In this document: piece by piece, positions 45,001 to 48,000 of the stretch
How positions within the stretch are numbered: position 1 is the stretch's first letter
Layout of the letters: every line of letters starts with the position of its first letter
Virus record (IMG/VR): IMGVR_UViG_2534681673_000009
Direction: 5' to 3' (one strand)
DNA: 49,610 nt
Source of the DNA: a virus
Lineage: Duplodnaviria > Heunggongvirae > Uroviricota > Caudoviricetes
Made by a program: the position numbers

Positions 45001-48000
45001 TGATTAACGGCAGCGGTAAGCCGGTGCGCGTGGACATCACTGCACACCCCGCCCCGGACCGGATACAGGTCAGCGTCCTGCCTGATGGCGTGGCGACATA
45101 CGGTGTGTGGGGACTCTCCCTGCCGTCACTGCGTCGTCGCCTGTTCCGCTGTGTTTCCATCCGGGAAAACACGGACGGCACCTTTGCCATCACGGCAGTG
45201 CAGCACGTACCGGAAAAAGAAGCCATCGTGGATAACGGGGCCCGCTTTGAGCCGATGTCCGGCTCACTGTACAGCGTCATCCCGCCGGCAGTGCAGCACC
45301 TCACGGTGGAGGTAAGTGCCTCAGACGGCCAGTATCTGGCGCTGGCGAAATGGGACACGCCGCGGGTGGTGAAGGGCGTGCGCTTCAGTCTGCGCCTGAC
45401 CAGCGGAAACGGTGAAAACAGCCGCCTGGTGACCAGCGCCATCACGGCGGACACGGAGCACCGTTTCAGTGGCCTGCCTCTGGGTGAATACACCCTGACG
45501 GTCAGGGCGATAAACAGCTATGGCCAGCAGGGCGAACCTGCCACCACCACATTCCGGATTAATGCACCGGCGGCACCGGCCAGCATTGAACTGACGCCGG
45601 GCTATTTTCAGATAACGGTGGTCCCGCATCCTGCGGTGTATGACCCGACGGTACAGTATGAATTCTGGTTCTCAGAAAAACGCATCACGGACACGGCACA
45701 GGTGGAAACCTCTGCCCGTTATCTGGGTACCGGCAGCCAGTGGAGCGTCTCCGGCCCGCACATTAAGCCCGGGAAGGATTTCTGGTTTTATGTGCGCAGC
45801 GTCAACCTGGTGGGGAAATCTGCGTTTGTGGAGGCCAGCGGGCAGGCCAGCAATGATGGTGAAGGGTATCTGGAAATTTTCCGTGGGCTGATAGATGAGG
45901 CGCAGCTGGGGAAGGCACTGAAAGAGCGTATTGATGCGTCAGCCCTGCGTACTGAGGTCACGCAACTGGAAGAAGACATCCGCCAGCGGCTGGAGACGGA
46001 TGTTGCGGAAGTGACCCGAAAAATCGGGGAGGCGGAAAACAGCCTCACGCAGCTGGTTGCGAAAAAGAATGAGGACCAGACGCTGGCCATCGCGCAGGTG
46101 AGTCAGCAGGTGGACCGGGTGAGCAGTGAAATCACACAGACAGTCAGCCAGAGCACGGAGGAAAACGCCAGGCAGATAGCGCAGGTCCGCCAGTACGTGG
46201 ATGACAAAGGGAGTGAAATCACCTCGACCACGGATAAAAAGCTGGAAGACCAGAGCGCCACCATACAGCAGATACAGCAGGTCCAGTCAGACACGAATGA
46301 TGAGCTGGCAGCGCTGTACATGCTGAAGGTGCAGAAAACGAAAAACGGCATTCCGTATGTTGCCGGTATTGGTGCGGGGATTGAGGATGCTGATGGCCAG
46401 ACGCTGAGCAATATTCTGCTGCAGGCGGACCGTATCGCGATGATTACCCCGGAGAACGGCAACACCACGCCGCTGTTTGTGGCGCAGGGGAATCAGCTGT
46501 TCATGAACGACGTGTTCCTGAAGCGACTGTTTGCGGTGAGTATCACGTCATCCGGCAATCCCCCGACGTTTTCCCTGACGCCGGAGGGCAGGCTGACGGC
46601 CCGCAATGCGGACATCAGCGGACATATCAGTGCGAACTCGGGCACGCTGAATAATGTCGTGATAGCGGAGAACTGCACGATAAATGGCACGCTGAAAGCG
46701 GAGAACATTATTGGTGATCTGGTGAAATGTGCCGGGGTGGCTTTTCCGGTGGATGGTAGTTACCTTGCGAACGGTACACGAACGCTGACGGTGTATGACG
46801 ATCACAGCTTTGACCGGCAGATTATAATCCCGCCGATAATCTATGTCGGGTCAAAACAGGAATCCCGCACCAGTAATGACATCTGGACAGAGTGCTTCCT
46901 GCATGTTGATCAGAATGGACGCCGGATTTATTCAGGCAGGTCAGTGGCAGAGCCGGGAATTTTCAGCGGGATCATCGATATGCCAGCTGGCGGTGGTCAT
47001 ATCACCCTGAGTTTTACCGTGAGCTCACGGCGTCAGAATGACAGTTGGGGCAGTTCACGAATCAGTAACCTTCAGGCGATAGTGGTGAAGAAAAACAGCG
47101 CGGGGATCAGTATCCGCTGAACATCGCGCCCCGGGATTGCCGGAAGGAGACAAAAACCGTACAGTATGCGCGGGTGCCTTTGGCTGATGGCCGGAGGGAA
47201 CACCTGAAGGCCGGATGTGAAAAGGCCCCGGACAAAACATTCATGTTTAACCCGAGGCCTGACCATTCATCCTAAGCAAGTGAAAGGTTAGCGCCTCTCC
47301 GTAAAAGGAGCAAGCGTTATGTCGCAAAAACCGTTAAAACCACCGTGATTTGTATCACGGTAGTGCTCATTATCTGGATCACCCACAGTTCACTGTGCGA
47401 GTTCCGGTTCCGGATAGCGGGCGCGGAGATTGCGGCGTTCTTACAGTGTAAGCGGTAAGAAACCGTGGCGGGGGAGTGTACCTTCCCCGCCGACCGGTTG
47501 CTGAGGGTGATCAGCCGGATGGCACCTTTTTAACATCAATAAATCACAAATTTTACCGCAGGCCGGGAAACCGGTCCTGCGGTTTTTTTATGGAGGAAAT
47601 CCATGGCAGTCAGAATATCGGGTGTGCTGAAGGACGGGGCCGGTAAGCCGGTACCGGGATGCACGATAGAGCTGAAAGCGCGCCGCACAACGGAGACGGT
47701 GATTGTCACCACGGTGGCGTATGGTCAGCCGGGGGAAACCGGCAGTTACAGTATGGATGTTGAGCCGGGGTTGTACCGGGTGACGCTGAACACGGAAGGG
47801 TACGCGCCGTCATATGTGGGTGACATTCTGGTGAAGGCTGACTCAGCACCGGGAACGCTGAATAAATTTCTGATGGACCTGGAGGACGCACAGTATTACC
47901 CGAAAGCCCTTGCAGAGCTGGAAGCGGTGGCCGCGGAAATCCTGAAACGTGCGGAAGCGTCAGCGGCGAGTGCAGAGGAAGCGAAGAAACGGGCAGAGAA

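What the first reader, a model, noticed from the sequence alone, without database searches (positions are those of the whole stretch)
47263..47600. Hok/Gef-like small toxin gene in the slot occupied by lom in lambda
Between J and stf the only coding signal is a short ORF whose product VICITVVLIIWITHSSLCEFRFRIAGAEIAAFLQCKR matches the Hok/Gef pattern (hydrophobic helix, then SLCE-R-R...E-AAF). A 9-codon ORF with strong AAAGGAG Shine-Dalgarno ends exactly at its GTG (GTGA overlap). This suggests either translational coupling, or a one-base change in the A5 run that would otherwise give a single 47-aa MSQKTVKTTVICITVV... protein. A strong terminator follows at 47555-47590. A type I toxin-antitoxin locus here would need an antisense Sok-like RNA, which I cannot place by eye.
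Basis: partly seen in the sequence, partly recalled or inferred. Interest (0 to 1): 0.55.

Follow-up and report, generated by a model that had tools for sequence, protein, structure and literature searches.

The report
Frameshifted hok/sok toxin locus in prophage
The short ORF between the tail genes J and stf is a copy of a well-known small membrane-toxin/antisense-RNA (hok/sok-type) module common in E. coli prophages, but in this sequence the toxin gene is broken by a single missing A, so it is an ordinary and probably dead or mis-sequenced copy.

Summary
The GTG ORF 47345-47458 matches Pfam HOK_GEF (E 5.7e-11), and a 9-codon ORF (47319-47348) ends on it in a GTGA overlap. The two ORFs are one gene split by a 1-nt deletion. 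Repair gives the 46-aa protein WP_000078853.1, which RefSeq annotates as "Hok/Gef family protein" in this same J-stf slot in the closest E. coli prophages. The A4 allele was found nowhere else: 0 of 116 matching complete genomes, 0 IMG/VR contigs against 32 with A5, and 0 metagenome records. Around the ORF lies a full hok/sok-type architecture. It comprises a promoter, a leader matching Rfam RF01794 (51 bits, below the 59-bit gathering score), a conserved 5'-3' fold-back, a positionally conserved antisense promoter with a hairpin and U-tract (a Sok-like RNA of about 58 nt on the minus strand) and a terminator. No mok leader ORF is conserved. The tape-measure and stf genes in the window carry private 1-nt frameshifts too, so a real mutation cannot be told from a sequencing error. 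The family is known and the interest is low.

The parts
47137..47165 (+). Putative hok promoter: -35 TTGCCG (47137-47142), 17-nt spacer, -10 TACAGT (47160-47165). The +1 is about 47172.
   Evidence: Both hexamer positions are conserved across lambdoid, Stx-phage, P2-like and chromosomal copies (ATTGCC... / TA.A.T). The site is below the consensus scanner's threshold (8 of 12; one search found none). The Rfam leader match starts at 47172. This is a prediction.
47172..47330 (+). hok mRNA 5' leader, which is the Sok-target region. It includes the tac-like 5' end GGGUGCCUUUGGCUGAU (47172-47188), its local partner AAAGGCCCCG (47221-47230) and a conserved GAGG (47254-47257).
   Evidence: Rfam RF01794 gives 51.1 bits, E 2.8e-10, below the gathering score of 59. 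On an R1-type plasmid the same model matches the hok strand and ends on the hok AUG with 87 bits. Relatives score 38-50 bits.
47285..47313 (-). Predicted antisense (Sok-like) promoter: -35 TTGCTC (47313->47308), 17-nt spacer, -10 TAACCT (47290->47285).
   Evidence: Both hexamers are invariant in the 13 subfamily sequences aligned (window plus 12 relatives), while the spacer varies. They align position for position with CTTGCGC/17/TATCCT of the R1-type locus. The consensus scanner did not call this site. There are no expression data.
47220..47277 (-). Predicted Sok-like antisense RNA of about 58 nt: a single-stranded 5' tail, then the hairpin GGCCUCGGG...CCGGGGCC (47259->47224), then UUUU (47223->47220).
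   Evidence: The fold is -22 kcal/mol with z -3.0. The hairpin is kept in 12 of 12 relatives, with little covariation. The architecture matches the R1-type antisense strand. The ends are inferred, not mapped.
47304..47310 (+). hok Shine-Dalgarno AAAGGAG, predicted to pair locally with CUCC 47296-47299.
   Evidence: Seen directly in the sequence. The SD/anti-SD pairs are cols 152-155/162-165 of the consensus fold.
47319..47458 (+). hok-family toxin gene, frameshifted. The stub is ATG 47319 to TGA 47348 (MSQKPLKPP*). The remainder in the -1 frame is 47345-47458.
   Evidence: Alignments to intact 141-nt CDSs and Pfam HOK_GEF. After repair it is identical to WP_000078853.1.
47336..47339 (+). Frameshift site: A4 here, A5 in all relatives (1-nt deletion, codons 6-7).
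   Evidence: The allele is absent from 116 matching E. coli genomes (215 places), from phage records, from IMG/VR (0 contigs against 32 with A5) and from metagenome contigs.
47342..47361 (+). Perfect 8-bp hairpin ACCGUGAU-UUGU-AUCACGGU that encloses the GTG at 47345.
   Evidence: Present in the MFE folds. The equivalent stem is kept with compensatory changes in relatives (cols 197-222).
47463..47497 (+). 3'-UTR stem-loop (GGCGGGGGAG...CCCCGCC core). It may correspond to the 3'-end-protecting hairpin of the processed mRNA.
   Evidence: Consensus fold with compensatory pairs (AU<->GC in 5 sequences, GC<->AU in 4). The analogy is to the last stem-loop of Tr-hok in R1 (PMC9841398).
47510..47527 (+). 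fbi-like element AUCAGCCGGA-U-GGCACCU, complementary to the mRNA 5' end.
   Evidence: GGCACC is an invariant island in an otherwise variable 3' UTR. It closes the MFE fold of the full-length mRNA. It is the best duplex partner of nt 1-17 in 13 of 13 loci at -26 to -30 kcal/mol.
47556..47589 (+). Rho-independent terminator (stem 47556-47582, U7), the probable end of the full-length hok mRNA of about 418 nt.
   Evidence: A comparable terminator lies 25-35 nt after the fbi in P2-like and chromosomal copies.

Best explanation
Region 47137-47589 is a complete hok/sok-type type I toxin-antitoxin module. It belongs to a divergent 46-aa Hok/Gef subfamily that rides as a moron in E. coli lambdoid and P2-like prophages. 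The following mechanism is inferred by homology with R1 hok/sok. A weak promoter makes a stable mRNA of about 420 nt whose extreme 5' end (tac-like, 47172-47188) is clamped to a 3' element (fbi-like, 47510-47527), which keeps the mRNA translationally inert. Slow 3' trimming lets the 5' end switch to its local partner (47221-47230). A short, unstable antisense RNA of about 58 nt (minus strand 47277->47220), made from a conserved promoter, pairs with the leader and blocks expression or triggers decay. When that RNA disappears, the small membrane toxin is made. In the sequence as given, the toxin ORF is cut by a 1-nt deletion in an A5 run (47336-47339). The ribosome therefore stops after 9 codons. 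The 37-codon GTG ORF is the out-of-frame remainder and not a designed second cistron. As given, the copy is a toxin pseudogene with intact regulatory RNA elements, unless the missing A is a sequencing error, which cannot be decided here. Shown here: homology, the frameshift and its uniqueness, the conserved fold-back, and the positional conservation of the antisense elements. Inferred: transcription start sites, existence of the antisense RNA, toxicity, and biological role.
For: Pfam HOK_GEF scores 42-43 bits against a cutoff of 22, and PHROG 251 scores E 3e-21. The conserved Hok positions M1, C16, T18, L30, C31, E32 and E41 (bioRxiv 10.1101/2025.08.07.668861) map to M1, C12, T14, L26, C27, E28 and E37. 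The Rfam hok-leader model hits 47172-47330 with E 2.8e-10, and the strand logic was verified on an R1-type locus. The closest E. coli prophages (99.4-99.6% identical over the locus) carry an intact 141-nt 'Hok/Gef family protein' CDS between gpJ and the tail-fibre gene. The window differs by one missing A. That allele occurs in 0 of 116 matching genomes, 0 IMG/VR contigs against 32 with A5, and 0 metagenome records. The full-length mRNA folds at -165 to -189 kcal/mol with z -8.1 to -8.8 and 5'-3' closure. In 13 of 13 loci the 5' end's best partner is the 3' UTR element and the second best is the local tac-stem partner. The antisense -35, -10 and hairpin are conserved and align with the R1-type locus. 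All 15 relatives keep the ORF (46 codons; 47 in E. albertii, through an in-frame insertion) at 50-98% protein identity.
Against: No transcript, toxicity or antisense RNA was observed here. The Rfam hit is below the gathering score (51 against 59). The protein is below both NCBIfam Hok cutoffs (38 against 89 and 37 against 73). The sigma-70 scanner called neither promoter. No mok leader ORF is conserved, whereas mok translation is mandatory in R1 (PMC9841398), so the R1 mechanism cannot apply unchanged. The tac and fbi bases are invariant, so the support is conservation and one-sided compensation rather than true covariation. The 3'-truncated fold did not cleanly reproduce the tac-stem.
Confidence: 0.85

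Rival explanations
1. The missing A is a sequencing or assembly error at a short homopolymer. The real prophage carries an intact 46-aa hok gene identical to WP_000078853.1, and the locus is a live toxin-antitoxin module.
For: The A4 allele is unique in every collection searched. The same window has two other private single-base deletions that break genes: the tape measure at 38957 (A6->A5; ORFs 37605-39077 and 38984-40165) and stf at 48259, plus a -1/+1 pair at 48144/48160. Each is flanked by sequence identical to many genomes. A broken tape measure would be lethal to a phage.
Against: The rest of the prophage shows few indels against its closest relative, so the sequence is not generally error-ridden. 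Defective Stx prophages are common (general knowledge). Toxin genes are readily inactivated by single deletions: 22 of 91 R1 hok suppressor clones carried a single deletion (PMC9841398). An independent natural knockout of this same gene exists (ATG TAG in L026). Degenerate hok CDSs make up about 5% and 2.6% of unique sequences (10.1101/2025.08.07.668861).
Confidence: 0.4
2. The two-ORF arrangement is functional. Ribosomes terminating at TGA 47346-47348 re-initiate at the overlapping GTG 47345 (translational coupling) and make a 37-aa N-terminally truncated Hok.
For: There is a GTGA overlap and a strong SD with ATG upstream. The 37-aa product still matches HOK_GEF with E 5.7e-11 and keeps the hydrophobic segment and the C-terminal domain.
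Against: The arrangement exists in no other copy. The GTG is an internal Val codon in the intact gene and is ACA/ACG (Thr) in other clades. There is no SD before the GTG, and the GTG is buried in a perfect 8-bp stem. The product would lose Lys4 and Lys7, and the R1 Hok K2E mutant gave no detectable protein (PMC9841398). Seven of the eight 37-aa gene calls elsewhere are contig-edge truncations and the eighth follows a nonsense mutation, so none carries this arrangement.
Confidence: 0.06
3. The module, in its intact relatives, is not mainly an addiction or defence toxin-antitoxin. It is a lysis-timing accessory of the phage. It sits in the late operon in the same orientation, so late transcription from upstream would read through it and interfere with the convergent antisense promoter. 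That would release Hok to damage the membrane before holin and endolysin act.
For: The different hokW-sokW locus of Sakai prophage 5 behaves this way. sokW RNA disappears on induction, HokW appears about 1 h before endolysin, and deletion halves phage release (PMC8621323). The locus lies co-directionally between J and stf. PHROG places the family among morons.
Against: The same subfamily also sits after ogr in P2-like prophages and at a chromosomal site next to the type B L31 gene, where no phage gene was annotated in the short flank fetched. It carries its own promoter and terminator. Nothing was tested for this subfamily. This role is compatible with the best explanation rather than exclusive of it.
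Confidence: 0.25

Closest known systems
hok/sok (parB) of plasmid R1, the paradigm type I toxin-antitoxin system (PMC9841398)
   Same: The toxin is a small Hok/Gef-domain membrane protein with the LCE motif and a C-terminal Cys. The leader is recognisably homologous (Rfam RF01794). The mRNA has a 5'-3' tac/fbi-type fold-back with an alternative local partner for the 5' end. The antisense promoter sits across the toxin SD with 17-nt spacing, followed by a long hairpin and a U-tract. A terminator follows the fbi. The mRNA is about 400 nt long.
   Different: The toxin is 46 aa rather than 52 and scores below the NCBIfam Hok cutoffs. No mok leader ORF reads into the hok SD in the window or in 10 of its 14 relatives, and the R1 mok AUG position reads CAUUCAU here. 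The predicted antisense target ends about 28 nt upstream of the hok SD. The module is prophage-borne rather than plasmid-borne. In this window the toxin ORF is frameshifted.
WP_000078853.1 and its allies ('Hok/Gef family protein', PHROG 251 'MokW-like host killing') in E. coli prophages between gpJ and the tail-fibre gene
   Same: The locus and the slot are the same. DNA identity is 99.4-99.6% over 521 nt, and the protein is identical after the missing A is restored.
   Different: Those copies are intact (A5). The window has A4 and so a 9-codon stub plus an out-of-frame remainder.
hokW-sokW of Sakai prophage 5 (PMC8621323)
   Same: It is a prophage-borne hok/sok-family module in a Shiga-toxin phage. 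It has been shown experimentally to be a type I TA in which the antisense RNA is lost on induction.
   Different: It is a different locus and subfamily. HokW is 51 aa (MKQQKAM...DYESEK from the paper's primers). The Stx-phage relative of the window's locus is a second, uncharacterised 46-aa gene downstream of lom (933W L0129). The 'MokW-like' label on it is a PHROG name and not evidence for a mok.

Membership tests
Hok/Gef toxin family (Pfam PF01848) | Profile match above the curated gathering score | tested here: met
PHROG 251 gives 76 bits for the true repaired protein.
Hok/Gef toxin family | Conserved residues of the Hok logo (M1, C16, T18, L30, C31, E32, E41; 10.1101/2025.08.07.668861) | tested here: met
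   They map with a constant -4 offset to M1, C12, T14, L26, C27, E28 and E37 of the repaired protein. M1, C12, T14, C27, E28 and E37 are invariant in 8 aligned subfamily members, and L26 is kept in 7 of 8.
Hok/Gef toxin family | Intact ORF of at least 40 aa from its own SD and start codon (the cited catalogue discards shorter CDSs as degenerate) | tested here: not met
   In the window the ATG frame stops after 9 codons, and the remainder is 37 aa in another frame. All 15 relatives are intact.
NCBIfam Hok family toxin (NF007279) and HokA (NF007290) | Score above the curated cutoff | tested here: not met
   37 against 73 bits and 38 against 89 bits for the repaired protein. It is a divergent subfamily, which fits RefSeq's generic name for it.
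hok/sok type I TA locus (R1 paradigm) | hok mRNA leader / Sok-target RNA (Rfam RF01794) at gathering score | tested here: inconclusive
   51.1 bits against a gathering score of 59, E 2.8e-10, full-length model match on the hok strand. It is not listed at the gathering threshold. The R1-type control scores 87 bits.
hok/sok type I TA locus (R1 paradigm) | Long-range tac/fbi pairing of the mRNA 5' and 3' ends, with an alternative local partner for the 5' end | tested here: met
   The MFE folds close 5' to 3' with z -8.1 and -8.8. The 3' element is the best partner and the local one the second best in 13 of 13 loci. The local stem is in the consensus fold and in the Rfam model. The support is conservation and one-sided compensation, not two-sided covariation.
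hok/sok type I TA locus (R1 paradigm) | Antisense Sok RNA with its own promoter and terminator, complementary to the leader | tested here: inconclusive
   The -35 and -10 are invariant and positionally homologous to the R1-type hexamers, and a hairpin with a U-tract follows. The consensus promoter scan was negative. The R1 hexamers themselves are my own positional reading and were not confirmed from a paper. There are no RNA data.
hok/sok type I TA locus (R1 paradigm) | mok leader ORF whose translation reaches the hok SD | tested here: not met
   No ATG, GTG or TTG ORF reads into the SD in the window or in 10 of 14 relatives. The four exceptions start at different, non-homologous positions. 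The R1-type control is positive.
hok/sok type I TA locus (R1 paradigm) | Toxin kills or depolarises cells, and the antisense RNA neutralises it | not testable with these tools
   This needs expression experiments. 42 of 45 diverse Hok homologues were toxic in the cited preprint, but whether this cluster was among them was not checked.

The most novel reading that the evidence does not exclude
This prophage-borne 46-aa Hok subfamily works without a mok leader peptide. The GAGG that serves as the mok SD in R1 is conserved, but no ORF follows it. The antisense RNA would then control the toxin from about 28 nt upstream of the hok SD by another route, such as blocking a ribosome standby site or acting through RNase III cleavage alone. 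That would be a variant of the regulatory logic of the paradigm type I system. A still less likely extra is that the frameshifted allele leaks wild-type toxin through -1 slippage on UUA-AAA-C or through re-initiation at the GTG.
Probability: 0.35. Interest if true: 0.4.

Novelty: already known. Interest (0 to 1): 0.14.

Why it matters
For genome annotation, this shows that a short "orphan" GTG ORF with a tiny upstream ORF can be the two halves of a frameshifted type I toxin gene. It also shows that the 37-aa calls seen in draft assemblies are artefacts of contig ends or of knockouts. Biologically the locus is an ordinary member of a family already catalogued in tens of thousands of enterobacterial loci and known to be enriched in prophages. 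The only points of modest specialist interest are that this subfamily appears to lack mok while keeping the tac/fbi fold-back and the antisense elements, and that it is a different locus from the characterised hokW-sokW despite the "MokW-like" label in phage annotations.

Tried and rejected
(1) I first equated the Stx-phage relative with the published hokW. I rejected this after reading the primers and protein length in PMC8621323, because hokW is a different 51-aa locus.
(2) I first read the + strand Rfam 'sok' hit as a strand conflict. This was resolved by scanning an R1-type locus: the model is in the sense orientation of hok mRNA and ends on the hok AUG.
I rejected this because that run is A5 in all relatives.
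(4) I looked up the exact 37-aa product to find other frameshifted copies. It returned 8 places, but 7 are contig-edge truncations with A5 and 1 is a nonsense allele.
(5) The sigma-70 consensus scan found no promoter on either strand, so the promoters rest on conservation only.
(6) Folding the 3'-truncated mRNA did not give a clean tac-stem, and I did not use it as evidence.
(7) A genome-contig scan for other species gave only 6 loci, several of them probably contaminated records.
(8) I tried to confirm the R1 Sok promoter hexamers from the supplement of PMC9841398, but no supplement text is held.
(9) Rfam scans of the I-J repeat region found nothing. The Pas-sRNA preprint did not explain those repeats.
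(10) I did not compute dN/dS, because overlapping RNA-structure constraints would make it uninterpretable.
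Full report
**1. The observation**

- An AAAGGAG Shine-Dalgarno lies at 47304-47310, followed by ATG at 47319.
- That ATG opens a 9-codon ORF (MSQKPLKPP) that stops at TGA 47346-47348.
- The stop overlaps a GTG at 47345, which opens a 37-codon ORF ending at 47458.
- A strong stem with a U7 tract lies at 47556-47589.
- The 37-aa product matches Pfam HOK_GEF at 42.3 bits, E 5.7e-11, against a cutoff of 22.
- J ends at 47120 and the tail-fibre gene starts at 47603, so this is the only coding signal in the gap where lambda carries lom.

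**2. One gene, split by a single missing A**

- Phage 1720a-02 is 96.6% identical over the locus. Stx phages carry a relative about 78% identical over most of it. Both have a single 141-nt ORF that starts at the same ATG.
- In complete E. coli genomes, the closest copies (99.4-99.6% identical) all show the same ORF, annotated "Hok/Gef family protein" (WP_000078853.1 and allies). It lies between gpJ and the "prophage tail fiber N-terminal domain" gene.
- The window differs by one base: CCGTT-AAAACC (A4, 47336-47339) against CCGTTAAAAACC (A5).
- Restoring the A gives MSQKPLKTTVICITVVLIIWITHSSLCEFRFRIAGAEIAAFLQCKR, which is identical to WP_000078853.1.
- The GTG is therefore codon Val10 of the intact gene. 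The codon is Thr in other clades. The GTGA overlap is a by-product of the frameshift.

**3. How unusual is the frameshift?**

A 73-nt query centred on the site found 116 genomes (215 places). None matched at ≥99%, and 113 matched at 98.6%, which is one gap. The phage collection gave only 1720a-02, and its match also spans one extra base.

| Collection | A4 (window allele) | A5 (intact) |
|---|---|---|
| IMG/VR viral contigs (exact 28/29-mer) | 0 | 32 |
| Metagenome contigs (exact 28-mer) | 0 | not scanned |

Looking up the exact 37-aa product gave eight contigs.
- Seven simply end inside the gene. All four of those whose sequence reaches the A-run carry A5.
- The eighth (L026) is also A5 but carries an independent knockout, ATG TAG.

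So the allele is private to this sequence, although the gene has been inactivated at least once elsewhere.

**4. Real mutation or sequencing error?**

- The window is a chromosomal Stx1-type prophage beside ybhC.
- Compared with its closest relatives it has two further private single-base deletions that break genes.
  - The tape measure is hit at 38957 (A6->A5), which splits it into ORFs 37605-39077 and 38984-40165.
  - stf is hit at 48259, and it also has a -1/+1 pair at 48144/48160.
- Neither allele occurs in any complete E. coli genome.
- Elsewhere in the prophage indels are few.
- This pattern fits either a defective, decaying prophage or localised sequencing errors. I cannot separate the two without the reads.
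- Single-base deletions are a common way to lose hok. In the R1 study 22 of 91 suppressor clones carried a single deletion (PMC9841398).
- Degenerate hok CDSs are a recognised minority (10.1101/2025.08.07.668861).

**5. The surrounding architecture**

An alignment of copies from four genomic settings shows short invariant islands in otherwise variable sequence. The settings are the lambdoid J-stf slot, Stx phages after lom, P2-like prophages after ogr, and a chromosomal site. Salmonella and E. albertii copies were included.

- **(a) Promoter.** A promoter-like TTGCCG/17/TACAGT lies at 47137-47165, placing +1 at about 47172.
- **(b) Leader.** It matches Rfam RF01794 over the model's full length at 51.1 bits, E 2.8e-10, below the gathering score of 59. 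On an R1-type plasmid locus the same model matches the hok strand from the mRNA 5' end to the hok AUG at 87 bits. A + strand hit is therefore the expected result, and ATG 47319 is the homologous start.
- **(c) Fold-back.**
  - The 5' end GGGUGCCUUUGGCUGAU pairs with AUCAGCCGGA-GGCACCU at 47510-47527.
  - The full-length mRNA folds at -164.7 kcal/mol (z -8.1), or -189 kcal/mol (z -8.8) with the terminator, and is closed by this helix.
  - In 13 of 13 loci the 3' element is the best duplex partner of nt 1-17 (-26 to -30 kcal/mol).
  - The local AAAGGCCCC partner at mRNA positions 37-60 is second best (-18 to -22 kcal/mol).
  - The 3' partner differs in sequence between clades.
  - This is the tac/fbi logic of R1 (PMC9841398).
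- **(d) Antisense elements.**
  - On the minus strand, -35 TTGCTC (47313->47308), a 17-nt spacer and -10 TAACCT (47290->47285) are invariant.
  - They align position for position with CTTGCGC/17/TATCCT of the R1-type locus.
  - They are followed by a hairpin with a U-tract ending near 47220.
- **(e) Terminator.** The terminator at 47556-47589 has counterparts 25-35 nt after the fbi in other settings. It probably ends the hok mRNA.

**6. What does not fit R1**

- No mok-type ORF reads into the hok SD in the window or in 10 of 14 relatives.
- The GAGG that is the mok SD in R1 is conserved (47254-47257), but the mok AUG position reads CAUUCAU here.
- The protein scores below both NCBIfam Hok cutoffs.
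- The promoters are weaker than the scanner's threshold.
- The tac and fbi bases never vary, so there is no two-sided covariation.
- Nothing here demonstrates transcription, toxicity or antitoxin action.

**7. Rival readings**

- **Translational coupling to a 37-aa toxin is unlikely.**
  - The arrangement is unique to this sequence.
  - The GTG has no SD and lies in a perfect 8-bp stem (47342-47361).
  - The product would lose Lys4 and Lys7, and R1 Hok K2E gave no detectable protein (PMC9841398).
- **A lysis-timing role is compatible with the best explanation rather than exclusive of it.** That role has been shown for the distinct hokW-sokW locus (PMC8621323).

**8. Comparison with what is known, and verdict**

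- hok loci are catalogued at scale: 32,532 loci in 61 clusters, enriched about four-fold in prophages, and present in 9.3% of Escherichia phages (10.1101/2025.08.07.668861).
- This subfamily is PHROG 251, placed in the "moron" category, and PGAP annotates it.
- The finding is correct but ordinary: a frameshifted or mis-sequenced copy of a known prophage type I toxin-antitoxin module.
- The one mildly novel thread is the apparent lack of mok in this subfamily. The cited survey explicitly did not analyse mok.

Noticed in passing
window 37605-40165 (site 38957): The tail tape-measure gene is split into two ORFs (37605-39077 and 38984-40165) by a 1-nt deletion in an A-run (A6->A5) relative to intact relatives. 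The allele is found in none of 5,426 complete E. coli genomes. Either the prophage is defective or this is a sequencing error.
   Followed up: partly
window 47603-48870 (sites 48144, 48160, 48259): The collagen-repeat tail-fibre gene (stf) is frameshifted. A -1/+1 pair lies 16 nt apart, and a further -1 at 48259 (CCTCCGGG->CCTCGGG) moves the frame, giving ORFs 47603-48739 and 48355-48870. The 48259 allele is also private to the window.
   Followed up: partly
window 42524-43410: The gap of about 900 nt between the tail-assembly gene (ends 42521) and J has no annotation. It contains about four degenerate direct repeats of roughly 220 nt, each with a GAAATGTGAATAAAYTCAGAATTTTTATTCAC core. A variable CAGACAT tandem sits just upstream of J. 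The gap is unannotated in relatives and gave no Rfam match even at permissive thresholds.
   Followed up: partly
window 19266-19479: The sRNA STnc100 (RF02076, 194 bits) lies just downstream of a stxA-sized ORF (17952-18908) and upstream of the 654-aa ORF at 19691-21655, which occupies the position of the SASA esterase gene in the relative. It is the only Rfam family passing its gathering score in the window. Its 3' A-run is one base shorter than in the closest relative.
   Followed up: no
L026 2640-2790 (GCA_012023665.1): This is an independent natural knockout of the same hok gene. Codon 2 is TCG->TAG (ATG TAG CAA...), with A5 intact, so the gene caller falls back on the internal GTG.
   Followed up: yes
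L023-L030: In seven of eight draft assemblies the contig ends within about 25 nt upstream of the internal GTG of hok. This suggests that the hok leader, shared by several prophages in one genome, is a recurrent assembly breakpoint and a source of spurious 37-aa 'Hok' gene calls.
   Followed up: partly
L010, L012-L014 (after ogr); L015 (next to the type B L31 gene): The same 46-aa subfamily, with the same leader, fbi and a downstream terminator, also sits after the ogr gene of P2-like prophages and at a chromosomal site. Overall 1,750 of 5,426 complete E. coli genomes hold a relative of the locus.
   Followed up: partly
L008 394-609 (plasmid pMTY1886_IncFII): In this R1-type hok locus the ATG at the mok position is in frame with hok, because the leader is one base shorter than my recollection of R1. 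That would predict an N-terminally extended Hok rather than an overlapping mok. RefSeq annotates only a 33-aa CDS (508-609) inside the 52-aa hok.
   Followed up: no
L016, L017, L019: P2-type and Stx-type copies of this E. coli hok locus appear in records labelled Planococcaceae MAG, Vagococcus sp. and Xanthomonas pisi. L019 is an 857-nt contig. These are probably enteric contamination of those assemblies.
   Followed up: no
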